This document shows, piece by piece, positions 39,898-49,407 of a stretch of DNA of 64,000 nucleotides. The notes under the pieces were generated by a model. The model searched no databases and was not told where the DNA came from. It was given only the letters and a program-made list of their open reading frames with translations. Source of the DNA: a phage; sequence record PZ445427.1; one strand, written 5' to 3'. Each line of letters opens with the position of its first letter. The first letter of the stretch is position 1. A program made the position numbers and the translations under genes.

Positions 39898-39926
39898 TTG
39901 CTTAATGCCGAAATTTTCTGTATAAT
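39898..39926 (+). promoter_or_regulatory. promoter cassette driving tRNA operon
   Basis: TTGCTT-N17-TATAAT; first tRNA starts about 15 nt after predicted TSS. Confidence 0.6.
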
Positions 39927-39940
39927 ATATTCATAAATTT

Positions 39941-40034
39941 GGAAGATTAACCCTAAAGGTAAGGGAGCTGTTTGCTAAACAGCCAGTAACTGTGGAGACA
40001 CGGTGTGCCAGTTCGAATCTGGCATCTTCCTCCA
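39941..40034 (+). tRNA. tRNA-Ser (anticodon GCU), class II
   Basis: acceptor GGAAGAT/ATCTTCC; anticodon stem GCTGT/ACAGC loop TTGCTAA; long variable arm; T-arm GCCAG-TTCGAAT-CTGGC; CCA encoded. Confidence 0.75.
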
Positions 40035-40039
40035 AATTT

Positions 40040-40117
40040 GGTTCTCAAGCTCATTTGGTATGAGCCGTCGCCTCATAAGCGAAAGGTAGGTAGGTTCGAA
40101 TCCTCCGGGAGCCACCA
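40040..40117 (+). tRNA. tRNA with anticodon CAU (Met or Ile-lysidine type)
   Basis: acceptor GGTTCTC/GGGAGCC (2 G-U); anticodon loop CTCATAA; T-loop TTCGAAT; CCA encoded. Confidence 0.6.
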
Positions 40118-40134
40118 ATTAATTAGGAGACTAT

Positions 40135-40320
40135 ATGTCTAGATTCTACGAAATGAAGAAAGCATTAGAAGAATGTCGGTGTAAGGACTGTCATGGTGGT
40201 GGTAGGCAGGATGATGCAGAACCTGGGGATATTTTCTGTAGAGAATGGGAATGTCCTACATGTAAAGGTACTGGTATCAACCCTGAATATGCAATTTGTC
40301 TAGACATTGAGCGAGGCTAA
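40135..40320 (+). CDS. small Zn-ribbon protein (61 aa)
   Basis: CxxC...CxxC (CRCKDC / CPTCKG). Confidence 0.5.
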   Translation: MSRFYEMKKALEECRCKDCHGGGRQDDAEPGDIFCREWECPTCKGTGINPEYAICLDIERG

Positions 40321-40660
40321 GATGGATATTTTTACTACTCCGGCAATAAACCTTTTAGGTGTTGGCTTGTTCCAAGCTACGGTGTATCGTACCGATGATT
40401 CTACTGATGTGGTAACGTTCATCGTACCTGAGTTCTTCCTAGAAAAGTTCTTTGAAGAGTTTGAGCAGTTCCGTGAAGAACACAATGCTCATTCCGATAT
40501 GGAAGATCTAGCAGCTATGTTCCCTGCGGTTTACGGCTATATCTTTGAAGGTAATGGCCTAGATCTTAATAAATCTGAACTCGTTGAACTTAATTGGGGC
40601 ATCAATTTTGAGGTTGGCTCTCCATTCCCTCGATATTTCCAGGGTTTAGAGATTCGCTAA
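40307..40660 (+). CDS. hypothetical protein (117 aa)
   Basis: ORF. Confidence 0.5.
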   Translation: MSEAKMDIFTTPAINLLGVGLFQATVYRTDDSTDVVTFIVPEFFLEKFFEEFEQFREEHNAHSDMEDLAAMFPAVYGYIFEGNGLDLNKSELVELNWGINFEVGSPFPRYFQGLEIR

Positions 40661-40668
40661 GATTACAT

Positions 40669-40745
40669 GGGGGTGTAATCGAATTGGCATAGGTACTGGA
40701 CTTAAAATTCAGGTTTTGTGGGTTCGAATCCCACCACCCCTACCA
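40669..40745 (+). tRNA. tRNA, anticodon UAA (Leu-type anticodon but class I length)
   Basis: acceptor GGGGGTG/CACCCCT; anticodon stem CTGGA/TTCAG loop CTTAAAA; T-arm GTGGG-TTCGAAT-CCCAC; D-arm not resolved. Confidence 0.5.
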
Positions 40746-40896
40746 AATTAAGGAAATAAAATGAAAGCTATTAAGAAAGCACTACGTAAATTTATGTACT
40801 GTCGTTTCCATAGTATTAAGGCTTCAACTAATGGTACGACTTACGATCGCTATGATCCTAAGTTTGGCTTACATTCTAAATAACTGGAGATAATAA

Positions 40897-41103
40897 ATGG
40901 CTAATCCTGAAATTACTGCACAGCGCTTTATGCTGAAAGGTATTATTGCTGAAGCAGGCATGACAGAAGAAGTTGCAGATTTTCAAAAGCAGTTCCTAAA
41001 TATTCTCACTCAAGCCAAAGAGCTAGGAGAGAAAGAACATGGCGCGGCTATTATGGCAATCACATTGGTTGGGCTTGATCTGGCAGAAGAATCAGGAGTT
41101 TAA
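40897..41103 (+). CDS. hypothetical protein (68 aa)
   Basis: ORF. Confidence 0.45.
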   Translation: MANPEITAQRFMLKGIIAEAGMTEEVADFQKQFLNILTQAKELGEKEHGAAIMAITLVGLDLAEESGV

Positions 41104-41133
41104 CTCCTCCAAGCAGAAATTTTAAAAATGTAC

Positions 41134-41163
41134 TTGCTTTTTACTTAAGATTTCTGCTATAAT
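41134..41163 (+). promoter_or_regulatory. promoter cassette (TTGCTT-N18-TATAAT)
   Basis: upstream of 41194 gene. Confidence 0.55.
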
Positions 41164-41193
41164 AGTTATATAAATTGATGAAGGAGTTAACGA

Positions 41194-41469
41194 ATGTCAA
41201 AACGTGTTACTTCAACTGGTGTTGAAAGTGCTGTTTGTAAATCCTGGGGTGGCTGGGAAGGTGAGATTGAATGGCTTTATTTCTACGATGTAGAACTTCT
41301 GCCGGAAGTCAAAGCTAAATGTGTGGAAGCTGGTATGGCTCCTGATGCAAAGGCTGATATCGAAATCACCATGACTAAGCTAGAAGGTCGTGTAATTACG
41401 CTCAATGATGATTATGAAGAAGTGTTCGAGCTTCCATTCAAACTGAGTGTCACTCCTAGCTTCGAGTAA
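41194..41469 (+). CDS. hypothetical protein (91 aa)
   Basis: ORF after promoter. Confidence 0.5.
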   Translation: MSKRVTSTGVESAVCKSWGGWEGEIEWLYFYDVELLPEVKAKCVEAGMAPDAKADIEITMTKLEGRVITLNDDYEEVFELPFKLSVTPSFE

Positions 41470-41505
41470 CTGATATAGCACTGAGCAAGTTCTTTAAAAT
41501 TTGAC

Positions 41506-41534
41506 TTGCTCAGTCCTTCAAAACTTGATATAAT
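41506..41534 (+). promoter_or_regulatory. promoter cassette (TTGCTC-N17-TATAAT) driving tRNA-Tyr
   Basis: hexamers 41506-41511 / 41529-41534. Confidence 0.55.
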
Positions 41535-41599
41535 ATTTATCTAATTTGGAAACATATTTAAAAGTGTTTAAATGAGAATTTTTGAATACTTCTAAATAT

Positions 41600-41687
41600 G
41601 GGCGTTTATTCCGTAAGTGGTAGCGGAGGGGATTGTAAATCCCTGGTCATTGCGACTCGAGTGGTTCGACTCCATTAACGCCCACCA
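41600..41687 (+). tRNA. tRNA-Tyr (anticodon GUA), class II
   Basis: perfect acceptor GGGCGTT/AACGCCC; D-stem TCCG/CGGA; anticodon loop TTGTAAA; long variable arm; T-loop TTCGACT; CCA encoded. Confidence 0.75.
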
Positions 41688-41704
41688 AATTAAAGGTAAA
41701 GGAT

Positions 41705-42196
41705 ATGTATATTGATCGGATAATTCAAGAAGCTGCAAATAGGGGTATTATACAGTTGGGTTCACCCGCTGATATAAATAAAGATCTAATATTAGAAAGC
41801 CTCACATTTGGTACAGCTAACTTTGGTCGCGATAGTAATCGTCGATATAGCTTGAAGTTATCTGCACTATCTTTTATCAAGTATAACAAAAGTATTGGAG
41901 AAAAATCCAGCTGTGGTTTTATTTACGCAATAACTAACCCAGCTTGGGATAACTATGTAAAAATTGGTATGTCTTCTGATCCTAAAACAAGATTAAGAAA
42001 TTACCAAACCTATTCTCCTTTACGTGATTATAAGTTAATACATTGGTCATTCTGGTTTAATGCTAGAGAAGCGGAGAAAATGCTTCATAATAGCTTTCCT
42101 GAACGGCTTAACGAATGGGTAGTGTTAGACAGAGGTGTAGACGAAATACTTTCCGAGTTTAACAATTTATCCAATAAGCAATTTAAGTCCTGTTAG
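41705..42196 (+). CDS. T5orf172/GIY-YIG-like domain protein (putative homing-endonuclease-type)
   Basis: 163 aa; block GFIYAITNPAWDNYVKIGMS...RL..Y resembles GIY-YIG/T5orf172 core; 3' end overlaps tRNA-Glu by about 10 nt. Confidence 0.55.
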   Translation: MYIDRIIQEAANRGIIQLGSPADINKDLILESLTFGTANFGRDSNRRYSLKLSALSFIKYNKSIGEKSSCGFIYAITNPAWDNYVKIGMSSDPKTRLRNYQTYSPLRDYKLIHWSFWFNAREAEKMLHNSFPERLNEWVVLDRGVDEILSEFNNLSNKQFKSC

Positions 42197-42263
42197 ACAA
42201 ACTGGTAAAGTCACTACCCTTTCAAGGTAGGATTTGCGGGTTCGATCCCCGCACAGGACGCCA
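42187..42263 (+). tRNA. tRNA-Glu (anticodon UUC)
   Basis: acceptor GTCCTGT/ACAGGAC; anticodon stem CTACC/GGTAG loop CTTTCAA; T-arm GCGGG-TTCGATC-CCCGC; CCA encoded. Confidence 0.7.
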
Positions 42264-42272
42264 ATTTCTGCA

Positions 42273-42348
42273 TTCCTAGAGTGTTACTGGACAGCATGTC
42301 GGTCTCCAAAACCGTACGGTCTAGGTTCGAGTCCTAGTAGGTTTGCCA
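42273..42348 (+). other. tRNA-like element with Trp-type anticodon arm (CCA); possible degenerate tRNA
   Basis: anticodon arm CGGT-CTCCAAA-ACCG and T-arm CTAGG-TTCGAGT-CCTAG are canonical, but acceptor pairing is only 5/7. Confidence 0.35.
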
Positions 42349-42354
42349 ATATTT

Positions 42355-42429
42355 GCACCTTTAGCTGAGATGGATTAGCGCTTGCCTGAAGAGCTTGAGA
42401 GGTTCGTTCAATTCGAACAGGGTGCACCA
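42355..42429 (+). tRNA. tRNA, anticodon probably GAA (Phe); CUG not excluded
   Basis: acceptor GCACCTT/AGGGTGC; D-stem GCTG/TAGC; anticodon loop CTGAAGA with weak stem; T-arm GTTCG-TTCAATT-CGAAC; CCA encoded. Confidence 0.55.
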
Positions 42430-42448
42430 ATTAATCAATATAAGGCTT

Positions 42449-42829
42449 ATGGAAACAAAAACGTGTAATAAGTGTGGAAATACATTTCCCTTGAGTACGG
42501 ACTACTTCTTTAAAAGTGGTAAGCAAGTCTCAGGAAAACAAAAATGGAAACCTATGTGCAAACAATGCGAAAGTATATCTCGTATTGAATACTATAATAA
42601 TACAATTGCCGAGGTTTTTCCTGACTTACATTGTGCTATTTGTGGGTATAACAAGTGTCCACAGGCGATTGATTTCCATCATTTAGAGCAGGATGATAAA
42701 GAGTTTAATATTAGTGAAGCTAGACGGGGTACGTTTAACAAAGAAAAACTAATAGAAGAGCTTGAGAAATGTGTACCTTTATGCTGTAGGTGTCACAGAG
42801 AATATCATGCTGGAGTTATTGAGCTTTAA
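42449..42829 (+). CDS. HNH homing endonuclease
   Basis: HNH motif DFHHLEQDDKEFN...CCRCHREYH with Zn-binding Cys pairs; start placed after upstream tRNA. Confidence 0.75.
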   Translation: METKTCNKCGNTFPLSTDYFFKSGKQVSGKQKWKPMCKQCESISRIEYYNNTIAEVFPDLHCAICGYNKCPQAIDFHHLEQDDKEFNISEARRGTFNKEKLIEELEKCVPLCCRCHREYHAGVIEL

Positions 42830-42843
42830 ACTGAAAAATGTAG

Positions 42844-42872
42844 TTGCTTAAATCCTTAAAGTTCTGTATAAT
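42844..42872 (+). promoter_or_regulatory. promoter cassette (TTGCTT-N17-TATAAT)
   Basis: upstream of 42901 gene. Confidence 0.6.
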
Positions 42873-42900
42873 TATTATATAAATTGAACTGGAGAACTAG

Positions 42901-43089
42901 ATGAAAGCACCTAAACCGAAATTAGTTAAGTTCGACTGCTGTGACACTGAAATCTTATTTACTAAGTTTGGTGAATTTAAGATGTGTGAATGTGGAACAT
43001 GTGGTTATGATCATGGTGATGGATATTATTGCAGAACCCTCGGGCCTTCTGAACTAATCCACTTCTCATGGCCGGAAAGTAAAGAATAA
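42901..43089 (+). CDS. small Cys-rich protein (62 aa)
   Basis: CC...CEC..C...C pattern. Confidence 0.45.
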   Translation: MKAPKPKLVKFDCCDTEILFTKFGEFKMCECGTCGYDHGDGYYCRTLGPSELIHFSWPESKE

Positions 43090-43091
43090 TA

Positions 43092-43167
43092 CGACCGTTG
43101 GCTGAATGGCTTAGGCGGAGGCCTGCAAAACCTCCTTATGTGAGTTCGAATCTCATGCGGTCGTCCA
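43092..43167 (+). tRNA. tRNA-Cys (anticodon GCA)
   Basis: acceptor CGACCGT/GCGGTCG; anticodon loop CTGCAAA (stem GAGGC/ACCTC with one mismatch); T-arm GTGAG-TTCGAAT-CTCAT; CCA encoded. Confidence 0.6.
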
Positions 43168-43174
43168 AATTTTA

Positions 43175-43257
43175 GGGTCGTTAGCCAAGCGGTTTGGCGG
43201 TGGACTGTTAATCCATGTCGAAAGACAACGTAGGTTCGAATCCTACACGGCCCGCCA
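43175..43257 (+). tRNA. tRNA, anticodon GUU (Asn-type) with unusually long variable arm
   Basis: acceptor GGGTCGT/ACGGCCC; anticodon stem GTGGA/TCCAT loop CTGTTAA; 13-nt variable hairpin; T-arm GTAGG-TTCGAAT-CCTAC; CCA encoded. Confidence 0.55.
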
Positions 43258-43360
43258 TATTCTGTGTAGAGTTAAGTAAACCGGTAGCCAACCAGCTATC
43301 ATTGCTGATATCGAATTCAGTCACAGATACCATTTTTCATTAACAACTGAGGAAATAGAT

Positions 43361-43546
43361 ATGACAACTCGTGCAATTGCTCGACTAGAAGCTGATCGTG
43401 ATAGTCTGATTAATAATATTAAGGTTTGGGATCAAGAAATTGAAAACCAAAAACTGACATTAATTCAAGATATGCAACAACAGAATGCCCGTCGTGAAGC
43501 TCTAAAAGAGGTTGAGGAAGCTATCGAAAAACTCAAAACTGAGTAA
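43361..43546 (+). CDS. hypothetical coiled-coil protein (61 aa)
   Basis: ORF with SD GAGGAAATAG. Confidence 0.45.
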   Translation: MTTRAIARLEADRDSLINNIKVWDQEIENQKLTLIQDMQQQNARREALKEVEEAIEKLKTE

Positions 43547-43554
43547 ATAAATTA

Positions 43555-43632
43555 TGCGATCGGGGCTGGCTTGGTAATGGTACTCCCCTGTCACGGGAGA
43601 GAATGTGGGTTCGAATCCCATCGGTCGCGCCA
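43555..43632 (+). tRNA. tRNA-Asp (anticodon GUC)
   Basis: acceptor GCGATCC/CGGTCGC (6/7); anticodon stem CTCCC/GGGAG loop CTGTCAC; T-arm GTGGG-TTCGAAT-CCCAT; CCA encoded. Confidence 0.65.
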
Positions 43633-43638
43633 AATAAT

Positions 43639-43714
43639 ACATCCATAGCTCAATGGTTAGAGCTACCGCCTCTTAAGCGGAGGGTTCTAGGTTCAAGTCC
43701 TAGTGGGTGTACCA
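43639..43714 (+). tRNA. tRNA-Lys (anticodon CUU)
   Basis: acceptor ACATCCA/TGGGTGT; D-stem GCTC/GAGC; anticodon loop CTCTTAA; T-arm CTAGG-TTCAAGT-CCTAG; CCA encoded. Confidence 0.65.
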
Positions 43715-43794
43715 AACATCAGAGCAGCGTGATGTACTGCAAAGACCCAAAGTCCGGGGTGGACTTCTTGATTCAAAGGAGCAGGCATTAATTA

Positions 43795-43905
43795 TCATTC
43801 TAGCGTGGTGGAGAGGGGACACCAGCTTGCCGAGGGTAGAAGCTCGTTCGATTCGAGTGAAAGAATGGTTCTCGTAAATCCGCACAAGTGATAGTAGGTT
43901 CAAGT
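43795..43905 (+). other. unresolved tRNA-like structured segment
   Basis: contains T-arm-like GCTCG-TTCGATT-CGAGT and GTAGG-TTCAAGT-CCTAC but no acceptor pairing at tRNA spacing. Confidence 0.3.
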
Positions 43906-43927
43906 CCTACCTAGATTGACTCATTAT

Positions 43928-44001
43928 GCGTTCGTAGTTAAAAGGTATAATTTTTGGTTGCCAACCAGAAGTTGAGGGTTCGATTCCCTCCGACCGCACC
44001 A
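43928..44001 (+). tRNA. tRNA-Gly (anticodon GCC)
   Basis: acceptor GCGTTCG/CGACCGC (6/7); D-stem GTTA/TAAT; anticodon stem TTTGG/CCAGA loop TTGCCAA; T-arm GAGGG-TTCGATT-CCCTC; CCA encoded. Confidence 0.65.
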
Positions 44002-44249
44002 AATTTAGGTTTCTGCTTCCTAGAGAACTGACTCCTAGATAAACAAGGCGATGAGTTTCCGGCCGGTTCTAGTCGCTGAAAATCCTCCCGACCAGGTAGG
44101 TGTAAGTAAACGAAAGTTTACTTATTAAGTAAGTCCGACACATCGGCGGGTGTGTTCTAGTACTTAAAGAAGGTCTCGCAAACTTTCTCGCTAGCATGAG
44201 TTGATAGCTCGGTGACTTACCTAATAAGTAAATTTATTAAAAAATGTAG

Positions 44250-44278
44250 TTGCTATTTAGCTTAATTCTCTGTATAAT
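44250..44278 (+). promoter_or_regulatory. promoter cassette driving tRNA-Pro/CAU operon
   Basis: TTGCTA-N17-TATAAT. Confidence 0.6.
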
Positions 44279-44310
44279 ATATTTTATAAAGTGAGTTAAC
44301 AAAGAATATT

Positions 44311-44388
44311 CTCCGTGTAGCTCAGTTTGGCCAGAGCGTTTCGTTTGGGGCGATAGGGTCGGGGGTTCAAATCCTCCCACGGAGACCA
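44311..44388 (+). tRNA. tRNA-Pro (anticodon UGG)
   Basis: perfect acceptor CTCCGTG/CACGGAG; D-stem GCTC/GAGC; anticodon loop TTTGGGG; T-arm GGGGG-TTCAAAT-CCTCC; CCA encoded. Confidence 0.7.
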
Positions 44389-44394
44389 AACAAT

Positions 44395-45073: not shown

Positions 45074-45206
45074 TGATAATCTGGTTTTACTTAATGAAAC
45101 AAAAAGTCAAGCAGTACAACGTATTTTCTGCTGATTTTACTATTGGAATGTTCTTAGCGGGATTATGTGAGTTTCTGTTTGAAGCCTACATCATAGGAAG
45201 TCTTTT

Positions 45207-45280
45207 GCTCGGTTAGTTTAATGGGAGAACCCCGTCTTTACACGGCGGTTGCGATAGTTCGATTCTATCACCGAGTACCA
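45207..45280 (+). tRNA. tRNA-Val (anticodon UAC)
   Basis: acceptor GCTCGGT/ACCGAGT; anticodon stem CCGTC/GGCGG loop TTTACAC; T-arm GATAG-TTCGATT-CTATC; CCA encoded. Confidence 0.65.
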
Positions 45281-45299
45281 ATTAACTCAAAATAAGGAA

Positions 45300-45659
45300 T
45301 TGCAAATGCAATTATCAAGCAAGGTTCAAGGCTATTTCGGGCATGTAACAATGGAGTTCGCTATCTCTAAAGGTTGGGACTTCGAACAAGATCTAGCTGA
45401 ATTCTACAAAGATATTGATCTGAATGTACCGTACATAGGACTCTCTACTGGTCAAGAGATCACAGAAGGCGATGTGTTCAAGGCAAGTCAAGGTGAGGTA
45501 ACACCTAGTTTTGCCGAGTTCTGGTTAGGTATTACTTTGAAAGAAGATGCACCGGATGGTGGTGTGGTTATGCAGAGTATGCACTCTGGAAGCTCTGACT
45601 ACCTTTTCGTTAGTGACGTTAAGGAAATACAAGAAATCTGCAAAAATGTACTTGCTTGA
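45300..45659 (+). CDS. hypothetical protein (119 aa)
   Basis: ORF. Confidence 0.5.
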   Translation: MQMQLSSKVQGYFGHVTMEFAISKGWDFEQDLAEFYKDIDLNVPYIGLSTGQEITEGDVFKASQGEVTPSFAEFWLGITLKEDAPDGGVVMQSMHSGSSDYLFVSDVKEIQEICKNVLA

Positions 45660-45680
45660 TGCTTAATTTCTTGTTATAAT
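45652..45680 (+). promoter_or_regulatory. promoter cassette followed by about 245-nt leader
   Basis: TTGCTT-N17-TATAAT; next ATG only at 45924. Confidence 0.55.
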
Positions 45681-45923
45681 ATTTATATAAATTGATGGGG
45701 AGAAATCCTCATCAAAGTTCACTAAGGTATTAGCTCGACCTAGGACTGGCTGCCAAAAAGCACGATCCCTACGACTTGGGAGAAGTTCTAGATTAGTCCA
45801 CTAGATTCAGTGGCAACTGAATAGTGTATCGGGTTTGTGAAGAGCGGTTATCCTCTACTGGCTAATGTCTGAGGGTAATACGCACACCGAGCTAATAGCC
45901 TTAGTAAACTAGAAGGAATATCT

Positions 45924-46187
45924 ATGTTTGATCTTAAAGATATGGCTAAGAAACTAATGTCGCAACGTTATCAACAAAGAACCCTCCATAAACGAGTTTC
46001 CGATATGAAGAAACGTTGCAATAATGCTAAGTATTATAATAGTCTTAATAAACTATCTGATGTAGATCTTGCTAAAACTGAAGCAATATATAATCACTTA
46101 GTAGTAGAATCTGATATAGTGAATAAAGATATTGCTAGGCTAGAAGCTCAGATTGTAGCAACTGTTCTCGATATGTATAGAGAATAA
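45924..46187 (+). CDS. hypothetical protein (87 aa)
   Basis: ORF with SD AGAAGGAATATC. Confidence 0.5.
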   Translation: MFDLKDMAKKLMSQRYQQRTLHKRVSDMKKRCNNAKYYNSLNKLSDVDLAKTEAIYNHLVVESDIVNKDIARLEAQIVATVLDMYRE

Positions 46188-46196
46188 ATAAATTTT

Positions 46197-46275
46197 GGGG
46201 AATGGGTCTGCATGGAGTGGACACCTCGCTTGCACCGAGGACATCAGAACGGTTCGATTCCGTTATTCTCCACCA
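46197..46275 (+). tRNA. tRNA-Ala (anticodon UGC), copy 1
   Basis: acceptor GGGGAAT/ATTCTCC with G3-U70; anticodon stem CCTCG/CGAGG loop CTTGCAC; T-arm AACGG-TTCGATT-CCGTT; CCA encoded. Confidence 0.55.
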
Positions 46276-46281
46276 AAATTC

Positions 46282-46357
46282 GGGGTCATAGGTTATTTGG
46301 TTAAACTTACTGCCTTGCAAGCAGTGGAACTCAGTTCAATTCTGAGTGACTCCACCA
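46282..46357 (+). tRNA. tRNA-Ala (anticodon UGC), copy 2
   Basis: acceptor GGGGTCA/TGACTCC with G3-U70; anticodon stem ACTGC/GCAGT loop CTTGCAA; T-arm CTCAG-TTCAATT-CTGAG; CCA encoded. Confidence 0.7.
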
Positions 46358-46376
46358 AACAAATTAAGGAAATAAT

Positions 46377-46595
46377 ATGGTATTCTTAGCAGCCTCTGTA
46401 GTTCTTGCAGCTTTAGCACTAGCTATCTATTTTAGAACTATTAAAGATTTAGCTAAAGAAAAGAAAACTTTCTTTACTGATTATTCTTGGGGCGCTCCAT
46501 ATACCGTCCGCTTTATCAGCTTAGAAGCTATGCTGATAATGGTATTCAGTGGTATAGGTTCCGTTGTTACAGGGTTACTATTTATTTCTAACTAA
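46377..46595 (+). CDS. small membrane protein (72 aa)
   Basis: two hydrophobic helices. Confidence 0.5.
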   Translation: MVFLAASVVLAALALAIYFRTIKDLAKEKKTFFTDYSWGAPYTVRFISLEAMLIMVFSGIGSVVTGLLFISN

Positions 46596-46602
46596 ATAAA
46601 AT

Positions 46603-46683
46603 GGGGATGTGGCGAAATTGGCAGACGCGCTAGATTTAGGCTCTAGTCTTCGGGTGTGGGTTCGAGTCCCTCCATCCCTACCA
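46603..46683 (+). tRNA. tRNA-Leu (anticodon UAG), class II
   Basis: acceptor GGGGATG/CATCCCT; Leu-type D-arm GGCGAAATTGGCAGACGCGC; anticodon stem CTAGA/TCTAG loop TTTAGGC; CCA encoded. Confidence 0.65.
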
Positions 46684-46857
46684 AACATTGGATTAACTCA
46701 TGATGAAAACTCCTATAACTGATATCTGGTTAGCTGTTAATACATTAACTAAAGAGTATGTGTTTATAGAGTATGGTCAGAGGTATGACCAAAAGATGTA
46801 TAATCTCATACTTCCAGTATCCGCTAATGAAGTTTATGATTTAATCCTGAGATCTAC

Positions 46858-46948
46858 GGAAGAGCAAATCGATTAGGTGACGAAAACCGCTTGGAAAGTG
46901 GCTGACTGGTAAAACGGCTTGAGAGTTCGAATCTCTCTTCTTCCGCCA
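46858..46948 (+). tRNA. tRNA-Ser (anticodon GGA), class II
   Basis: acceptor GGAAGAG/TTCTTCC; anticodon loop TTGGAAA; long variable arm; T-arm GAGAG-TTCGAAT-CTCTC; CCA encoded. Confidence 0.55.
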
Positions 46949-46970
46949 AACAACTTACTAGGAAACTAAT

Positions 46971-47327
46971 ATGTCAGAAGTGACAATCTATAATGAAATG
47001 CTTGGCAAAATTTTTACTAGTGTATGCCAAGACCAAGATACTCTTATCTTCATTTGTACTGATGGTAAGAACTATAAGTTTTATCATGAGCAGGACTGCT
47101 GTGAAGATGTTCATATAGATGATATTATTGGTGATTTACATGACCTTTTAGGTTATCCAATCATAGAAGCAGAGGAAGTAATCACACACGCTACAGAAGA
47201 TTGGGATTCAGTAACCCATACATGGTATAAGTTTGCCACAGCTAAAGGCTGTGTAACCGTTAAATGGCATGGTTCTAGTAATGGTTATTACTCTGAATCT
47301 GTAAACTTTGTAATATACGAACAATAG
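46971..47327 (+). CDS. hypothetical protein (118 aa)
   Basis: ORF; stop overlaps start of next tRNA by 2 nt. Confidence 0.5.
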   Translation: MSEVTIYNEMLGKIFTSVCQDQDTLIFICTDGKNYKFYHEQDCCEDVHIDDIIGDLHDLLGYPIIEAEEVITHATEDWDSVTHTWYKFATAKGCVTVKWHGSSNGYYSESVNFVIYEQ

Positions 47328-47415
47328 AAGATAGGACGTAGTGGTACGTAACCGGTCTTGAAAACCGGCCCGCTGTAGTGATATGGTGATGGTTCGACTC
47401 CATTATCTTCTGCCA
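47326..47415 (+). tRNA. tRNA-Ser (anticodon UGA), class II
   Basis: perfect acceptor AGAAGAT/ATCTTCT; anticodon stem CCGGT/ACCGG loop CTTGAAA; long variable arm; T-arm GATGG-TTCGACT-CCATT; CCA encoded. Confidence 0.7.
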
Positions 47416-47560
47416 AATCTTGAAGTATGCCGGAATCGGTAGACGGGGCTTCCTAAAGGGCGTAAGGGGAACATCCACTCCTCATAAGATACCCGAAAAC
47501 GAGGCTGAGATAAATGGTCTATCTCGTGAAGGTTCAAGTCCTTCTGCTTCTTGATATTCA
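47416..47560 (+). other. unresolved tRNA-like structured segment
   Basis: Leu-type D-arm-like CCGGAATCGGTAGACGGGG and T-arm GAAGG-TTCAAGT-CCTTC, but no acceptor or anticodon arm at tRNA spacing. Confidence 0.3.
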
Positions 47561-47773
47561 ATGGCTCAAAGAGTAACGGTGCACCTTTCTAGAGAATTTC
47601 CTGGGCGAGAATCCAGGTGTAATCAACTAGTTGTTAGTGTGATGAGTTTCGGAGAGCCGCCACAATTGAAAATTCGTACTCGTCTTGAGCTTCGTGCAAT
47701 AGAAGATAACTTGATTAGTATTCTAGAAAATGCTATTTGAGGATGGTTTCGCTAACCCTGCGAGTTTTCAATT

Positions 47774-47850
47774 GTGGCTATATCATAATTGGTTAATGAT
47801 CCTGATTGTGAATCAGGCCTATGTGGATTCGAGTTCCACTAGCCACCCCA
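47774..47850 (+). tRNA. tRNA-His (anticodon GUG)
   Basis: perfect acceptor GTGGCTA/TAGCCAC; D-stem TCAT/ATGA; anticodon stem CCTGA/TCAGG loop TTGTGAA; CCA encoded. Confidence 0.75.
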
Positions 47851-47856
47851 AATATT

Positions 47857-47931
47857 GCGTCCTTATTTCAACGGAAAGAATGTAAAGCTACGAACTTTAC
47901 GATCGGGGTTCGATTCCCTGAGGATGCACCA
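47857..47931 (+). tRNA. tRNA-Arg (anticodon ACG)
   Basis: acceptor GCGTCCT/AGGATGC; anticodon stem GTAAAG/CTTTAC loop CTACGAA; T-arm CGGGG-TTCGATT-CCCTG; CCA encoded. Confidence 0.65.
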
Positions 47932-47954
47932 ATTAACTTAAACAGGAAAATAAT

Positions 47955-48156
47955 AATGGCTGATTTCTGTAAAGAATGCTCTATCGATATGTGGGGCAAA
48001 GATACACAAGATCTTTCTGGTCTTATCACTGAAGCCGAGGTTAAAGAGGGCTACGGTGCTGTAGTAATCTGCGAAGGTTGTGGTATTATCCGTGTTGATC
48101 ATGAAGGCAAACGCCTTGAAGAACCTGAGCCAATCGCAACGGTTCCTGTAGAGTAA
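47955..48156 (+). CDS. small Cys-rich protein (67 aa)
   Basis: start placed after tRNAs (ORF 47821 otherwise overlaps two tRNAs); CxxC...CxxC. Confidence 0.45.
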
Positions 48157-48164
48157 AGAATTAT

Positions 48165-48240
48165 TGGGATGTAGATCAATTGGCAGATCGTCGGCCTCTG
48201 ACTCCGAAGGTTCCACGTTCGATCCGTGGCATCCCAGCCA
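48165..48240 (+). tRNA. tRNA-Gln (anticodon CUG)
   Basis: perfect acceptor TGGGATG/CATCCCA with U1-A72 and G73 (Gln-like); D-stem GATC/GATC; anticodon loop CTCTGAC; CCA encoded. Confidence 0.7.
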
Positions 48241-48246
48241 AACAAT

Positions 48247-48322
48247 TGGAGAGTAGTGTAACGGTTAGCACAACGGCCTTTGACTCCGTTAATGGTAGGT
48301 TCGATTCCTCCTTCTCCAGCCA
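48247..48322 (+). tRNA. tRNA-Gln (anticodon UUG)
   Basis: acceptor TGGAGAG/TTCTCCA, G73; anticodon loop CTTTGAC; T-loop TTCGATT; CCA encoded. Confidence 0.65.
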
Positions 48323-48328
48323 ATTTAT

Positions 48329-48403
48329 GCGTGATTAGTTCAGTGGCTAGAATAACTGGCTTCCAACCAGTAGACACGAGTTCGACTCTCGTATCCCGCA
48401 CCA
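48329..48403 (+). tRNA. tRNA-Gly (anticodon UCC)
   Basis: acceptor GCGTGAT/ATCCCGC (6/7); D-stem GTTC/GAAT; anticodon stem ACTGG/CCAGT loop CTTCCAA; CCA encoded. Confidence 0.65.
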
Positions 48404-48419
48404 AATATAAGGAAACGTT

Positions 48420-48662
48420 ATGGACGTTTTTGAGTTTCGTAATAAAAGCCCCAATAGGCGCGTTTTGATTATTGGTGAAACATATCGAGCTTATGAGCAA
48501 GAAGATGGTTCGGTTTTACTAAACGATGAAAAGCAAGGTTATAGCTTTTATCCAGAAGAAACGTATGAAGAATTTCGTACCAAGTTTCTCTTACCAGACT
48601 GGCTAGCAGTAGCCGAGCAACGAGAATCCGAAGATGGCAGAAAACCTAAAATTAAAGGTTGA
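48420..48662 (+). CDS. hypothetical protein (80 aa)
   Basis: ORF with SD AAGGAAACG. Confidence 0.5.
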   Translation: MDVFEFRNKSPNRRVLIIGETYRAYEQEDGSVLLNDEKQGYSFYPEETYEEFRTKFLLPDWLAVAEQRESEDGRKPKIKG

Positions 48663-48785
48663 CAAACAAAAGAAATACGTTGAGGTTGAATTAGGCGAAG
48701 AACGCTTAAAGCTATCCTTCGAGTTTCTTCAGCAGTTGGCGATGACAGTAATGTCTGATAAGTCTCCTGTATTTGAGAAAGAAAT

Positions 48786-48808
48786 CCCGTTGAAATGACG
48801 GGTTTATT
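48786..48808 (+). terminator. hairpin CCCGT-TGAAATGA-ACGGG followed by TTTATT
   Basis: directly upstream of tRNA-Thr; may be terminator or processing signal. Confidence 0.35.
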
Positions 48809-48883
48809 GCTCCTAAAGCATTGCTGGCGATGCAGTTGCCTTGTAAGCATCTGAACCGGGTTCGATTCCTGGTGGGAGCACCA
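48809..48883 (+). tRNA. tRNA-Thr (anticodon UGU)
   Basis: acceptor GCTCCTA/TGGGAGC; D-stem GCAT/ATGC; anticodon loop CTTGTAA; T-arm CCGGG-TTCGATT-CCTGG; CCA encoded. Confidence 0.65.
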
Positions 48884-48898
48884 AATTTAAAAATTCAT

Positions 48899-48927
48899 TT
48901 GCCTTCTCTCTTATTTCTTGTTATAAT
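48899..48927 (+). promoter_or_regulatory. promoter cassette (TTGCCT-N17-TATAAT)
   Basis: followed by AATTAATGAGAGGGAAACC leader and ATG 48958. Confidence 0.55.
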
Positions 48928-48957
48928 ATTTATATAAATTAATGAGAGGGAAACCAA

Positions 48958-49251
48958 ATGAAACGTTATCTTTCTGTCGTATTCCAAACGGGTGGTCAAC
49001 GCTACACTTACGAATTTCCTGAGTCTTGGAAAATCAAAGAGGGTGATCAAGTTGTTGTGTTAACACCTCGTGAAGGCTTCAAAGTAGTAACGGTTAAACA
49101 AGTATTTCCAAAAGATCACGAACCATCTAAGTCTCTTAACTATAAGATGATTCATGGTCTGGTACGAAAAGTACCTAGAACAGAAGTCGAAGTAGATAAA
49201 ACTGGAGAAGCTAAATACCAGTATACCTCTTACTTAGACGAAATGATGTAA
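48958..49251 (+). CDS. hypothetical protein (97 aa)
   Basis: ORF after promoter. Confidence 0.5.
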   Translation: MKRYLSVVFQTGGQRYTYEFPESWKIKEGDQVVVLTPREGFKVVTVKQVFPKDHEPSKSLNYKMIHGLVRKVPRTEVEVDKTGEAKYQYTSYLDEMM

Positions 49252-49252
49252 T

Positions 49253-49328
49253 GCTCCGATAGTTCAAACGGTTAGAACAGGCGACCGATAATCGTCAAAT
49301 CTTGGTTCGATCCCAAGTCGGAGTACCA
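49253..49328 (+). tRNA. tRNA-Ile (anticodon GAU)
   Basis: acceptor GCTCCGA/TCGGAGT; D-stem GTTC/GAAC; anticodon stem GGCGA/TCGTC loop CCGATAA; T-arm CTTGG-TTCGATC-CCAAG; CCA encoded. Confidence 0.7.
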
Positions 49329-49334
49329 AATTAT

Positions 49335-49407
49335 AGTTAGTTGGCAGAGTGGTTATGCACCTCCTTCATACGGAGTGACTACAGTGGTTCAAATCCACTA
49401 CTAACTA
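49335..49407 (+). tRNA. tRNA with anticodon CAU (third copy); CCA not encoded
   Basis: perfect acceptor AGTTAGT/ACTAACT; anticodon loop TTCATAC; T-arm AGTGG-TTCAAAT-CCACT; 3' end followed by CTA. Confidence 0.55.

What the first reader, a model, noticed from the sequence alone, without database searches (positions are those of the whole stretch)
39898..49407. tRNA cluster with atypical members and embedded endonuclease genes
Seen in sequence: about 28 tRNA genes in several operons. By-eye folds give three CAU tRNAs, two tRNA-Ala(UGC) both with G3-U70, a GUU-anticodon tRNA with a 13-nt variable hairpin, a UAA-anticodon tRNA of class I length, and a final CAU tRNA lacking encoded CCA while all others encode it. 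Two homing-endonuclease-type genes (T5orf172/GIY-YIG-like 41705..42196 and HNH 42449..42829) sit between tRNAs and one overlaps tRNA-Glu. Anticodon calls need tool confirmation.
Basis: seen in the sequence. Interest (0 to 1): 0.5.

Follow-up and report, generated by a model that had tools for sequence, protein, structure and literature searches.

The report
T5-like phage tRNA-rich region
This is the well-known tRNA gene block of a T5-like Salmonella/E. coli phage: 28 tRNA genes covering all 20 amino acids, with two mobile endonuclease genes inserted between them; the odd-looking tRNAs are real but are shared with hundreds of other phages.

Summary
ARAGORN and the Rfam tRNA model find 28 tRNA genes at 39941-49408, plus tRNA-Arg(UCU) at 34483. 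There are three CAU tRNAs, two tRNA-Ala(UGC) with G3·U70, an 83-nt tRNA-Asn(GUU) with a 13-nt variable hairpin, and a 77-nt class-I-length tRNA-Leu(UAA). A final CAU tRNA reads CTA where the CCA should be. A T5orf172 gene ends 10 nt inside tRNA-Glu, and an HNH gene follows tRNA-Phe.

The window is an Epseptimavirus (T5-like, Demerecviridae). It is 95-98% identical to published Salmonella phages and collinear with the annotated tRNA region of phage T5. This "tRNA-rich region" is already described. T5 tRNA-Lys, Thr, Asn and Tyr neutralise the PARIS and retron-Eco7 defences, and homing endonucleases inside phage tRNA clusters are known (F-Tfl in T5, SegB in T4).

Both endonuclease genes are precise, sporadically distributed insertions.

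The atypical tRNAs are conserved and covary. Armless tRNA-Leu and V-arm tRNA-Asn recur widely in viral contigs, and I found no paper describing them.

The region also holds a missed degenerate tRNA-Ser(GGA) and homologues of the T5 "stable RNAs".

Verdict: real, correctly interpreted, already known. Interest is low to moderate.

The parts
34483..34557 (+). tRNA-Arg(UCU), an outlying member 5.4 kb upstream of the cluster
   Evidence: ARAGORN; Rfam 49.3 bits
39898..39943 (+). T5-type early promoter (TTGCTT-N17-TGTATAAT) directly upstream of tRNA-Ser(GCU). The finding's start coordinate is its -35 hexamer.
   Evidence: Repeat family D5/D6
39941..40034 (+). tRNA-Ser(GCU), class II, 94 nt
   Evidence: Rfam 48.4 bits
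40040..40117 (+). CAU tRNA no. 1, orthologue of T5 tRNA-Ile2(CAU), read as AUA after lysidine modification
   Evidence: 86% identical to T5 tRNAI2 with a fully compensated anticodon stem; Rfam 40.0 bits
40669..40745 (+). tRNA-Leu(UAA), class-I length (77 nt, 5-nt variable loop), with a Leu-type D-arm and A73
   Evidence: Rfam 57.4 bits
41115..41196 (+). T5-type promoter copy upstream of ORF 41194-41469
   Evidence: Repeat D9; similar to the T5 P13b promoter
41491..41548 (+). T5-type promoter upstream of tRNA-Tyr (position of T5 P14a)
   Evidence: Repeat D6; collinear with T5
41600..41687 (+). tRNA-Tyr(GUA), class II. Its variable hairpin GUC-AUUGC-GAC is identical to that of T5 tRNA-Tyr.
   Evidence: ARAGORN; comparison with T5
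41705..42196 (+). T5orf172 (GIY-YIG-like) free-standing endonuclease gene. Its 3' end overlaps tRNA-Glu by 10 nt. The inserted segment is 41694-42178.
   Evidence: Pfam E 4.8e-9; absent from T5, chee24 and L006; present in 58 records
42187..42263 (+). tRNA-Glu(UUC)
   Evidence: 61.1 bits
42272..42348 (+). tRNA-Trp(CCA) with conserved U2·U71 and U3·U70 mismatches
   Evidence: Rfam 36.3 bits
42355..42429 (+). tRNA-Phe(GAA)
   Evidence: 45.8 bits
42449..42829 (+). HNH endonuclease gene (126 aa). The inserted segment is 42431-42833.
   Evidence: PHROG 1.7e-30; motifs; absent from ZBSTP12, T5, chee24 and L006; present in 12 records
42829..42908 (+). T5-type promoter copy upstream of ORF 42901-43089
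   Evidence: D3, D5, D6
43092..43167 (+). tRNA-Cys(GCA)
   Evidence: 40.7 bits
43175..43257 (+). tRNA-Asn(GUU) with a 13-nt variable arm (GUC-GAAA-GAC stem-loop) and G73
   Evidence: Rfam 59.0 bits; homologues in 520 phage records
43260..43332 (+). Homologue of T5 RNA3 (putative tRNA-like RNA, ends ACCA)
   Evidence: 97% to T5 rna3; fold
43556..43632 (+). tRNA-Asp(GUC)
   Evidence: 46.8 bits
43639..43714 (+). tRNA-Lys(CUU)
   Evidence: 64.8 bits
43796..43920 (+). Homologue of T5 RNA2 (tRNA-like stable RNA with a T-arm)
   Evidence: 88%; fold
43928..44001 (+). tRNA-Gly(GCC)
   Evidence: 61.1 bits
44134..44185 (+). Partial homologue of T5 RNAIV
   Evidence: 81% over 53 nt
44250..44295 (+). T5-type promoter upstream of tRNA-Pro (position of T5 P13a)
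   Evidence: 10/12 consensus match; repeat D5
44311..44388 (+). tRNA-Pro(UGG)
   Evidence: 54.4 bits
44395..44472 (+). CAU tRNA no. 2, orthologue of the T5 'tRNA-fMet'. It has U1·U72, A11-U24 and G2-C71/C3-G70/G4-C69, but only one of the three G-C pairs in the anticodon stem.
   Evidence: 98.7% to T5 tRNAfM; Rfam 46.2 bits
44661..44738 (+). tRNA-Lys(UUU). Positions 38-41 read C-C-U-C, against A-U-C-A in E. coli.
   Evidence: Rfam 60.6 bits
45207..45280 (+). tRNA-Val(UAC)
   Evidence: 57.8 bits
45637..45716 (+). T5-type promoter copy (position of T5 P13b)
45728..45840 (+). Homologue of the first 113 nt of T5 RNA2H (stable RNA of unknown function)
   Evidence: 96%
46197..46275 (+). tRNA-Ala(UGC) no. 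1, 79 nt, with an unusual extended D-arm, G3·U70 and A73
   Evidence: 36.3 bits; conserved with covariation in chee24, IME260 and ZBSTP12
46282..46357 (+). tRNA-Ala(UGC) no. 2, canonical, with G3·U70 and A73
   Evidence: 59.6 bits
46603..46683 (+). tRNA-Leu(UAG), 81 nt, variable arm cut down to a UUCG mini-hairpin
   Evidence: Rfam 54.1 bits
46858..46948 (+). Degenerate tRNA-Ser(GGA), orthologue of T5 tRNA-Ser2. Not called by ARAGORN or Rfam.
   Evidence: Alignment A1; blast to the chee24 and ZBSTP12 tRNA-Ser
47326..47415 (+). tRNA-Ser(UGA), class II
   Evidence: Rfam 32.1 bits
47419..47562 (+). Homologue of T5 RNA1 (tRNA-like stable RNA)
   Evidence: 81%; T-arm-like hairpin at 47528-47544
47667..47772 (+). 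Homologue of T5 RNAIII (stable RNA), abutting tRNA-His
   Evidence: 96%
47774..47850 (+). tRNA-His(GUG)
   Evidence: 58.6 bits
47857..47931 (+). tRNA-Arg(ACG)
   Evidence: 53.4 bits
48165..48240 (+). tRNA-Gln(CUG)
   Evidence: 56.4 bits
48247..48322 (+). tRNA-Gln(UUG)
   Evidence: 50.0 bits
48329..48403 (+). tRNA-Gly(UCC)
   Evidence: 65.5 bits
48809..48883 (+). tRNA-Thr(UGU). Its anticodon stem-loop is identical to that of T5 tRNA-Thr (G39 instead of U39).
   Evidence: Rfam 47.4 bits
48884..48963 (+). T5-type promoter copy (position of T5 P11)
   Evidence: 10/12 match with an extended -10; repeats
49253..49328 (+). tRNA-Ile(GAU)
   Evidence: 58.9 bits
49335..49408 (+). CAU tRNA no. 3, orthologue of T5 elongator tRNA-Met. 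The 3' end reads A-C-T-A instead of A-C-C-A.
   Evidence: 98.6% to T5 tRNAM; Rfam 52.5 bits

Best explanation
The region is the tRNA-rich region of a T5-like (Epseptimavirus) virulent phage. About eight strong T5-type early promoters drive short operons of tRNA genes, small ORFs and tRNA-like stable RNAs. Host RNase P and 3' exonucleases would release 28 or more tRNAs that between them decode all 20 amino acids.

The set does three things (inferred from T5 work). First, it keeps translation running once the phage has destroyed host DNA and host tRNA synthesis stops. Second, it favours the A/U-ending codons of a 40% G+C genome in a 52% G+C host. Third, it replaces host tRNAs that defence nucleases cut. 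The replacement copies differ from the host ones at or near the cut site, or in overall shape. These include Lys, Thr and Asn against PARIS AriB, and Tyr against retron-Eco7 and Septu.

The structural oddities are conserved alleles that keep the known synthetase identity elements. They are an armless tRNA-Leu, a V-arm tRNA-Asn, U·U pairs in tRNA-Trp and an odd D-arm in tRNA-Ala no. 1. They are most likely functional.

The one gene with CTA in place of CCA would need 3' trimming and the host CCA-adding enzyme.

The two endonuclease genes are selfish free-standing homing elements inserted in tRNA spacers. They probably cut endonuclease-free alleles in co-infecting relatives and drag the neighbouring tRNA genes along. 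This explains the mosaic, allele-swapping pattern of the region.
For: Shown here:
- 95-98% DNA identity to Epseptimavirus genomes.
- Gene order collinear with the T5 tRNA region, including its promoters and stable RNAs.
- 28+1 tRNAs found by two methods, with all 20 amino acids covered.
- A repeated TTGCTT-N17-TGTATAAT promoter family placed in front of tRNA groups.
- Compensatory changes between orthologues: the Ile2 anticodon stem, the Ala1 anticodon and T stems, and the Trp acceptor stem.
- tRNA-Leu keeps U8, A14, A15, G18, G19, A21 and A73. The review PMC9976931 says the E. coli LeuRS identity set rests on A73, A15-U48, G18G19 and A20a, not on the variable arm.
- tRNA-Asn keeps the GUU anticodon and G73, which are the E. 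coli AsnRS determinants.
- The tRNA-Tyr variable hairpin and the tRNA-Thr anticodon stem-loop are identical to those of T5. tRNA-Lys(UUU) differs from E. coli at positions 38-41, around the AriB cut site.
- The codons most enriched over E. coli are CUA 6.1x, AAG 4.1x, ACU 3.5x, ACA 2.3x, GCU 2.25x and UAU 2.2x. Several of these, though not all, are read by a phage tRNA through Watson-Crick pairing.
- Both endonuclease genes are precise insertions with sporadic distribution.

From the literature:
- T5 tRNA-Lys, Thr and Asn neutralise PARIS (PMC11464382, PMC12409363).
- T5 tRNA-Tyr rescues infection from retron-Eco7, and the ~8-kb tRNA-rich region is dispensable except under defence (PMC11555353).
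- SegB homes into tRNA genes and carries its flanks with it (PMC2330249).
- SegB amplifies tRNA-Tyr under Septu pressure (PMC13096335).
Against: - No expression, processing or charging data exist for this phage.
- The codon-usage link is weak overall: median phage/host ratio 1.35 against 1.03, Mann-Whitney p = 0.10.
- E. coli LeuRS failed to charge the type I tRNA-Leu(CAA) of Streptomyces coelicolor (PMC6614811). Charging of the armless phage tRNA-Leu is therefore not certain.
- tRNA-Asn keeps the host-like UAAUC|C sequence at the AriB site, so any resistance would have to come from shape.
- The 'fMet' tRNA lacks two of the three anticodon-stem G-C pairs and has U73.
- T5 record notes say several T5 tRNAs did not work as amber suppressors.
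- Endonuclease activity and target sites were not tested.
- A generic sigma-70 scan was not enriched over shuffles.
Confidence: 0.85

Rival explanations
1. Pure codon compensation. The tRNAs exist only to supply codons that the AT-rich phage uses more than its host, with no role in defence evasion.
For: The phage is 40.3% G+C against 52% for E. coli. The phage tRNAs with U34 anticodons match A-ending codons that are enriched 1.4-6x: CUA, ACA, GUA, CCA, GGA, AGA, UUA and CAA.
Against: The set covers all 20 amino acids. It includes codons the phage uses less than the host: GGC 0.26x, AGC 0.43x, UGC 0.42x and CAG 0.64x. The overall test is not significant at p = 0.10. T5 orthologues are experimentally needed only under PARIS or retron defence.
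Confidence: 0.1
2. The atypical members are decaying pseudogenes or processing signals rather than working adaptors. These are the armless Leu, the V-arm Asn, the U·U Trp, Ala no. 1 and the Met without CCA.
For: The region does contain true relics: the degenerate tRNA-Ser(GGA) at 46858, the tRNA-like RNA1, RNA2 and RNA3 homologues, and a weak tRNA-like hit at 33879. T5 notes report several tRNAs that failed as suppressors. Ala no. 1 and Trp score only 36 bits.
Against: Each atypical tRNA is conserved across genera with compensatory stem changes and retained identity nucleotides. The V-arm stem covaries through at least 9 different Watson-Crick combinations, capped mostly by GNRA or UUCG tetraloops. 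The armless Leu makes up 42% of tRNA-Leu in an unbiased viral sample. Leu(UAA) and Asn are the only genes for their anticodons in this phage.
Confidence: 0.08
3. Identity switch. The V-arm tRNA-Asn(GUU) is charged by a synthetase that reads class II shape (SerRS or TyrRS), or it acts as a decoy for nucleases that cut variable loops, rather than inserting Asn.
For: G73 is shared by E. coli tRNA-Ser and tRNA-Asn, and SerRS reads arm size, not the anticodon. The window's V-arm has the same N-GUC-loop-GAC-NNC layout as the variable hairpin of this phage's own tRNA-Tyr and of T5 tRNA-Tyr. It resembles E. coli tRNA-Tyr as well, but that comparison is from memory. In the viral sample, 30 loci carry both a class I and a V-arm tRNA-Asn. 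There is a nematode precedent, the nev-tRNAs (PMC3333845).
Against: The V stem is only 3-4 bp, against roughly 3-6 bp plus a larger loop in this phage's own tRNA-Ser genes. The full AsnRS determinant set, GUU plus G73, is kept in 93 of 101 sequences. In this window it is the only tRNA-Asn, and AAC/AAU codons make up 5% of phage codons, so mis-insertion would be costly.
Confidence: 0.05

Closest known systems
tRNA gene region of bacteriophage T5 (GenBank AY543070, with endonucleases F-TflI/II/IV), also described as the 'tRNA-rich region' of T5-like phages (PMC11555353)
   Same: The order of tRNA genes is the same: Ser-Ile2 ... Tyr-Glu-Trp-Phe ... Cys-Asn ... Asp ... Pro-fMet-Lys-Val ... Ala-Leu ... 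Ser ... His ... Gln-Gln-Gly ... Thr ... Ile-Met. The promoters and the stable RNAs RNA1, RNA2, RNA3, RNAIII, RNAIV and RNA2H are shared. Endonuclease ORFs likewise end inside the next tRNA.
   Different: This phage has 28 tRNAs where T5 has 23. It adds Leu(UAA), Lys(CUU), Gly(GCC), Arg(ACG) and a second Ala. Its Asn, Trp and Ala alleles are unrelated in sequence to those of T5. Its endonuclease genes are a T5orf172 type and a small HNH type at different sites; the T5 hegA, hegC and hegD positions are empty.
Phage T4/T6 tRNA cluster with the GIY-YIG homing endonuclease SegB (PMC2330249, PMC13096335)
   Same: A free-standing GIY-YIG-type endonuclease gene lies between tRNA genes, next to tRNA-Tyr. 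The ORF overlaps the next tRNA. The gene is absent from close relatives.
   Different: The protein family is different (T5orf172, 163 aa), as is the phage family. Cleavage of tRNA T-arm sequences and amplification of tRNA genes were not tested here.
Type I (short variable loop) tRNA-Leu of animal mitochondria and Streptomyces coelicolor (PMC6614811)
   Same: A tRNA-Leu with a 5-nt variable loop, in a system whose other relatives carry the long-arm form.
   Different: The phage form is an E. coli-like tRNA-Leu with the hairpin cleanly removed. It keeps A14, A15, G18G19 and A73. The host LeuRS is the E. coli type, which did not charge the Streptomyces type I tRNA.
Nematode V-arm tRNAs with non-Leu/Ser anticodons (nev-tRNAs, PMC3333845)
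   Same: A long variable arm on a tRNA whose anticodon belongs to a class I family.
   Different: nev-tRNAs have Leu-type bodies and are charged with Leu. The phage tRNA-Asn keeps the Asn determinants (GUU, G73), a class I D-arm and a short 3-bp arm. Nothing here shows recoding.

Membership tests
T5-like (Demerecviridae) tRNA-rich region | High DNA identity to Demerecviridae genomes | tested here: met
   625 phage records match. The best are 95-98% identical Epseptimavirus genomes.
T5-like (Demerecviridae) tRNA-rich region | Synteny of tRNA genes, promoters and stable RNAs with the T5 tRNA region | tested here: met
   Collinear blast blocks and matching gene order
T5-like (Demerecviridae) tRNA-rich region | tRNAs are expressed early and protect against tRNA-cleaving defences | not testable with these tools
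   Known for T5 and SP15 only. Here only sequence similarity at the relevant sites was checked.
Canonical tRNA (Rfam RF00005) | Covariance-model score at or above 29 bits | tested here: met
   28 of 29 genes score 32-65 bits. tRNA-Tyr is matched only through the clan's tRNA-Sec model at 33.2 bits, below its threshold, but it is called by ARAGORN.
Class II (long variable arm) tRNA, applied to tRNA-Asn 43175 | Variable region longer than 10 nt that forms a stem-loop | tested here: met
   13 nt, GUC-GAAA-GAC. The stem covaries in relatives: GUUC/GAAC, GC/GC, GAG/CUC, GUG/CAC and others.
E. coli-type tRNA-Leu identity set | A73, A14, the A15-U48 pair, and G18G19 in a Leu-type D-loop | tested here: met
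   All are present in both Leu genes. The feature list is from PMC9976931.
E. coli-type tRNA-Leu identity set | Long variable arm (class II shape) | tested here: not met
   Variable region of 5 nt (UAA) and 9 nt (UAG). The review says the arm is not needed by E. coli LeuRS, but PMC6614811 reports no charging of a foreign type I tRNA-Leu.
Bacterial initiator tRNA, applied to CAU no. 2 (44395) | Mismatch at 1-72, and an A11-U24 pair | tested here: met
   U1·U72, and the D-stem GAUC/GAUC gives A11-U24. That these features define initiators is from my own knowledge.
Bacterial initiator tRNA, applied to CAU no. 2 (44395) | Three consecutive G-C pairs (29-41, 30-40, 31-39) in the anticodon stem | tested here: not met
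   The stem is CUAGU/GCUAG, so only G30-C40 is a G-C pair. The discriminator is U, not A. The T5 record nevertheless labels the orthologue an initiator.
tRNA-Ala | G3·U70 wobble pair and A73 | tested here: met
   Both Ala genes
GIY-YIG/T5orf172 free-standing homing endonuclease | Nuclease domain present | tested here: met
   Pfam T5orf172 at 37.1 bits (cut-off 20), residues 71-133
GIY-YIG/T5orf172 free-standing homing endonuclease | Intergenic insertion present or absent among otherwise collinear relatives | tested here: met
   Segment 41694-42178 is missing from T5, chee24 and L006, where Tyr and Glu are 6-8 nt apart. It is found in 58 records.
GIY-YIG/T5orf172 free-standing homing endonuclease | Site-specific cleavage of the empty allele and biased inheritance | not testable with these tools
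   Needs biochemistry and phage crosses
HNH homing endonuclease | HNH catalytic motif with zinc-binding cysteines | tested here: inconclusive
   PHROG HNH families hit at E 1.7e-30 and 3.8e-18, and DFHH...N...CCRCH..YH is visible. There is no Pfam hit at E <= 0.01.
HNH homing endonuclease | Sporadic presence at a precise site | tested here: met
   Segment 42431-42833 is absent from four comparators and present in only 12 records.

The most novel reading that the evidence does not exclude
Three features could be members of virus-enriched tRNA shape classes that nobody has characterised: the armless tRNA-Leu, the V-arm tRNA-Asn and the U·U-acceptor tRNA-Trp. On this reading, phages remodel the variable arm or acceptor stem so that host tRNA-cleaving defence nucleases, which read tRNA shape, no longer bind. 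PARIS AriB, PtuAB of retron-Eco7 and Septu are examples of such nucleases. Meanwhile the host synthetases, which read A73 plus the elbow (Leu) or the anticodon plus G73 (Asn), would still charge them. Support: armless Leu is 42% of tRNA-Leu in an unbiased sample of viral tRNA arrays. V-arm Asn gave more than 100 distinct viral sequences. In bacterial and archaeal genome assemblies, V-arm Asn turned up only inside tRNA arrays on contigs, most of them MAG contigs. I found no paper on either class in six full-text searches.
Probability: 0.25. Interest if true: 0.6.

Novelty: already known. Interest (0 to 1): 0.27.

Why it matters
As a locus it adds nothing new. It is one more copy of the T5-type tRNA-rich region, whose role in beating tRNA-cleaving bacterial immunity is an active and already published topic.

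It is useful as a well-annotated example. It shows which T5 counter-defence tRNA features are kept: the Tyr variable loop and the Thr anticodon stem. It shows which are replaced by other solutions: different substitutions around the AriB site in tRNA-Lys, and a V-arm in tRNA-Asn. It also shows how endonuclease insertions go along with allele swapping.

The side observation may be worth a tRNA biologist's attention. Phages commonly break the class I / class II rule for Leu and Asn. This makes a simple question testable: do enterobacterial LeuRS and AsnRS charge these shapes, and do defence nucleases miss them?

Tried and rejected
- A generic sigma-70 and terminator scan gave 22 promoter-like sites against 27 expected and 10 terminator-like sites against 7.6 expected. 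This was uninformative. The promoters were found instead as a repeat family and by homology to annotated T5 promoters.
- The search for related loci with the single ORF 40322-40660 returned only three close relatives. I switched to DNA pattern scans.
- The genome-contig scan with the Asn pattern mostly hit ordinary tRNA-Ser and intron-containing archaeal tRNA-Asn. It therefore gives only a rough view of the bacterial distribution, and no second genome scan was allowed to test the armless Leu.
- Six literature searches for V-arm tRNA-Asn or type I tRNA-Leu in phages found nothing specific. The library lacks most subscription journals, including the 1980s Russian T5 tRNA sequencing papers, so absence is weak evidence.
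- I considered that CAU no. 3 might be the Ile2 tRNA because it sits next to Ile(GAU). I rejected this because it is 98.6% identical to the T5 gene annotated as elongator Met, while CAU no. 1 matches T5 Ile2. No isotype-specific model (tRNAscan-SE) was available to check independently.
- I considered that ORF 47821-48156 overlaps the His and Arg tRNAs. Its PHROG match starts at residue 46, so the real gene starts after tRNA-Arg.
- U·U pairs at 2-71 and 3-70 of tRNA-Trp were not found in 79 other viral tRNA-Trp sequences, so this feature is specific to the lineage.

Full report
**Observation.**
ARAGORN finds 29 tRNA genes in the window, all on the + strand. Twenty-eight lie between 39941 and 49408, and one, tRNA-Arg(UCU), is at 34483-34557. 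The Rfam tRNA covariance model confirms them independently. Most score 40-65 bits against a gathering score of 29. The lowest scores are Trp and Ala no. 1 (36.3 bits each) and Ser(UGA) (32.1 bits). tRNA-Tyr is matched only through the related tRNA-Sec model, below its threshold.

- There are three CAU tRNAs, at 40040, 44395 and 49335.
- There are two tRNA-Ala(UGC) genes, both with G3·U70 and A73.
- The GUU tRNA is 83 nt. Its 13-nt variable region, GUCGAAAGACAAC, forms a 3-bp stem capped by GAAA.
- The UAA tRNA is 77 nt with a 5-nt variable loop.
- Every gene has an encoded CCA except the last, which reads A-C-T-A.
- ORF 41705-42196 carries a Pfam T5orf172 domain, and its TAG stop lies inside the first 10 nt of tRNA-Glu.
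- ORF 42449-42829 matches PHROG HNH endonuclease families and shows the cysteine and HNH motifs.

**What the window is.**
The 9.5-kb stretch matches 625 phage records. The best matches are 95-98% identical Salmonella and Escherichia phages of the genus Epseptimavirus in the family Demerecviridae, the T5-like phages. The richly annotated T5 record AY543070 has the same gene order in the opposite orientation: Ser3(GCU)-Ile2(CAU) ... Tyr-Glu-Trp-Phe ... Cys-Asn-RNA3 ... Asp ... RNA2-RNAIV-Pro-fMet-Lys-Val-RNA2H-Ala-Leu(UAG) ... Ser2-Ser1-RNA1-RNAI-RNAIII-His ... Gln2-Gln1-Gly1 ... Thr ... Ile1-Met.

By orthology the three CAU genes are Ile2 (86% identity), the T5 'fMet' (98.7%) and elongator Met (98.6%). 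The Ile2 orthologues differ by a fully compensated anticodon stem. The 'fMet' gene has the 1-72 mismatch (U·U), A11-U24 and G2-C71/C3-G70/G4-C69. It has only one of the three anticodon-stem G-C pairs and has U73, so I do not file it as a canonical initiator.

The missing CCA is a single C75-to-T change relative to T5. It is shared with ZBSTP12. Such a tRNA would need 3' trimming and the host CCA-adding enzyme. The precedent is the T4 tRNAs that lack an encoded CCA (my own knowledge).

**Operons.**
A generic promoter scan was not enriched. A repeat search, however, found a family of about 60-75-nt elements with TTGCTT, a 17-nt spacer and TGTATAAT. Copies start at 39534, 39898, about 41135, 41501, 42844, 44250, 45652 and 48899. 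Several align with promoters annotated in T5, namely P14a, P13a, P13b and P11. The finding's start coordinate, 39898, is the -35 hexamer of the promoter in front of tRNA-Ser(GCU). Within each group the tRNAs are 5-8 nt apart.

**Endonuclease genes.**
Alignment with relatives shows that 41694-42178 (T5orf172) is a clean insertion between tRNA-Tyr and tRNA-Glu. In T5 and chee24 these two genes are 6-8 nt apart. Likewise 42431-42833 (HNH) is a clean insertion after tRNA-Phe. It is absent from ZBSTP12, T5, chee24 and an IMG/VR relative. The two segments occur in 58 and 12 phage records respectively, against 625 for the region. This is the pattern expected of free-standing homing endonuclease genes.

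T5 itself has HNH endonuclease genes (F-TflI, II, IV) at other sites in this region, and their ORFs also run into the next tRNA. In T4, the GIY-YIG enzyme SegB cuts at tRNA T-arm sequences and spreads itself together with flanking tRNA genes (PMC2330249). In T6, SegB amplifies the neighbouring tRNA-Tyr gene under Septu pressure (PMC13096335). The T5orf172 gene here also sits next to tRNA-Tyr.

The region is a mosaic. The Asn, Trp and Ala alleles here have no detectable similarity to those of T5. A DUF7448 ORF (46971-47327) is present or absent among close relatives.

**Function.**
I take function from work on T5:
- T5 encodes a tRNA-Lys(UUU) that PARIS AriB cannot cut. Full rescue needs T5 tRNA-Lys, Thr(UGU) and Asn(GUU) (PMC11464382, PMC12409363).
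- T5 and SP15 lose resistance to retron-Eco7 when the ~8-kb 'tRNA-rich region' is deleted, and tRNA-Tyr restores it (PMC11555353).
- The resistance of T5 tRNA-Tyr is attributed to its distinctive variable loop (PMC13096335).

In this window:
- The tRNA-Tyr variable hairpin (GUC-AUUGC-GAC) and the tRNA-Thr anticodon stem-loop are identical to those of T5.
- tRNA-Lys(UUU) differs from E. coli at positions 38-41, though with other bases than T5 uses.
- tRNA-Asn keeps the host-like UAAUC|C sequence at the AriB site but has the extra arm.

Codon usage gives partial support for compensation. The window is 40.3% G+C against 52% for an E. coli sample. The codons most enriched in the phage are CUA (6.1x), AAG (4.1x), ACU (3.5x), ACA (2.3x), GCU (2.25x) and UAU (2.2x). 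Of these, CUA, AAG and ACA have Watson-Crick cognate phage tRNAs. The overall contrast is weak, with median ratios of 1.35 against 1.03 and p = 0.10. The set also includes tRNAs for codons the phage avoids.

**The atypical tRNAs are not local accidents.**
The 77-nt tRNA-Leu(UAA) is annotated as tRNA-Leu in many T5-like genomes. Aligned with E. coli leuW and with the long-arm versions in T5 and Klebsiella phage IME260, it is an E. coli-like tRNA-Leu with the arm hairpin cleanly removed. It retains U8, A14, A15, G18, G19, A21 and A73. The window's Leu(UAG), at 81 nt, is an intermediate whose arm is cut down to a UUCG mini-hairpin.

The identity review states that E. coli LeuRS depends on A73, A15-U48, G18G19 and A20a, and not on the arm (PMC9976931). 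Against that, E. coli LeuRS did not charge the Streptomyces type I tRNA-Leu (PMC6614811), so charging is likely but unproven. In loci chosen without regard to Leu, 38 of 91 tRNA-Leu genes were of class I length.

The 83-nt tRNA-Asn has homologues in 520 phage records, including T4-like phages such as CC31. It gave 101 distinct V-arm tRNA-Asn sequences with arms of 11-18 nt and G73 in 93 of 101. The best hairpins were mostly 3-4 bp (7 sequences had only 2 bp), the loops were mostly GNRA or UUCG, and there were many different Watson-Crick stems. In loci chosen without regard to Asn, the form is rare, 2 of 58.

In bacterial and archaeal genomes the same pattern mostly hit ordinary tRNA-Ser. The eleven V-arm Asn hits all lay in arrays of 4-23 tRNAs per 8 kb, mostly on MAG contigs. 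The AsnRS determinants, the anticodon and G73, are kept. Six full-text searches found no description of either form in phages. The library is incomplete, so this is weak evidence of absence.

**Other features.**
- tRNA-Trp has U2·U71 and U3·U70. These are conserved in chee24, IME260 and an Aeromonas phage while the rest of the acceptor stem covaries. The mismatches were not seen in 79 other viral tRNA-Trp sequences.
- tRNA-Ala no. 1 has an extended D-stem. It is conserved across genera, with compensated anticodon and T stems.
- A degenerate tRNA-Ser(GGA) at 46858-46948 is the orthologue of T5 Ser2. ARAGORN and Rfam both miss it.
- Homologues of the T5 stable RNAs are present: RNA3, RNA2, RNAIV, RNA2H, RNA1 and RNAIII.

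**Verdict.**
The locus is a further copy of a published, actively studied system, so I rate it as already known. The residual interest lies in the recurrent phage tRNA shapes (armless Leu, V-arm Asn), which appear to be uncharacterised and are easy to test.

Noticed in passing
window 46858-46948 (+): A degenerate tRNA-Ser(GGA) gene ending in GCCA, orthologous to T5 tRNA-Ser2 and to the tRNA-Ser genes of ZBSTP12 and chee24. Its variable arm is 2-4 nt shorter and its D-loop has 1 extra nt. Neither ARAGORN nor Rfam calls it.
   Followed up: partly
window 43260-43332, 43796-43920, 44134-44185, 45728-45840, 47419-47562, 47667-47772 (+): Homologues (81-97% identity) of the T5 'stable RNAs of unknown function': RNA3, RNA2, RNAIV, RNA2H, RNA1 and RNAIII. 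Three of them are tRNA-like, with an acceptor-like stem, a T-arm and, in RNA3, an ACCA end. Some overlap small ORFs that relatives annotate as proteins.
   Followed up: partly
window 42272-42348 (+); L003 11744-11820; L004 12643-12719; L005 2546-2620: tRNA-Trp keeps U2·U71 and U3·U70 mismatches in four Demerecviridae genera while pairs 4-7 of the acceptor stem covary. The feature is not seen in 79 other viral tRNA-Trp sequences.
   Followed up: partly
window 46603-46683 (+): tRNA-Leu(UAG) is 81 nt, with its variable arm reduced to a UUCG mini-hairpin. Orthologues are 87 nt (IME260), 85 nt (T5) and 77 nt (chee24, a different allele), a graded series of arm loss.
   Followed up: partly
IMG/VR loci L009-L247: Phage tRNA arrays often break the class I / class II rule. 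42% of tRNA-Leu are armless and more than 100 distinct tRNA-Asn carry a V-arm. ARAGORN also reports forms of 79 nt or longer for Ile (24), Met (19), Cys (16) and Thr (13). 30 loci carry both a class I and a V-arm tRNA-Asn.
   Followed up: partly
window 33879-33950 (+): A weak tRNA-like hit (29.3 bits, right at the gathering score) with a good T-arm. It has two acceptor-stem mismatches, no recognisable anticodon arm and no CCA, so it is probably a relic. chee24 has an ARAGORN 'tRNA-Ser(ACU)' call at the matching position.
   Followed up: partly
window 37701-39486 (+): A NadR-like gene (cytidylyltransferase plus AAA_28 kinase domains) and a PnuC NMN transporter gene lie directly upstream of the tRNA block. 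This is an NAD salvage pair, also present in the Aeromonas relative.
   Followed up: no
window 33143-33586 (+): A 147-aa ORF with a sub-threshold YqeY/GatB-tail-like match (25.6 bits against a cut-off of 27). Relatives annotate it as 'tRNA amidotransferase'. It sits just upstream of the outlying tRNA-Arg.
   Followed up: no
window 46971-47327 (+): A DUF7448 ORF (E 3e-26) that is absent from ZBSTP12 and an IMG/VR relative but present in chee24. This is another presence/absence element inside the tRNA block.
   Followed up: no
window 49780-50148 (+) and 34796-35740 (+): A glycine-radical (GrcA-like) small protein lies just downstream of the tRNA block, and an SPFH/Band 7 protein lies next to tRNA-Arg.
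   Followed up: no
L005 4904-4978 and 5800-5873 (Aeromonas phage AhP_Mru1): This Demerecviridae relative carries tRNAs with CUA and UCA anticodons, annotated as suppressor tRNAs, inside its tRNA array.
   Followed up: no
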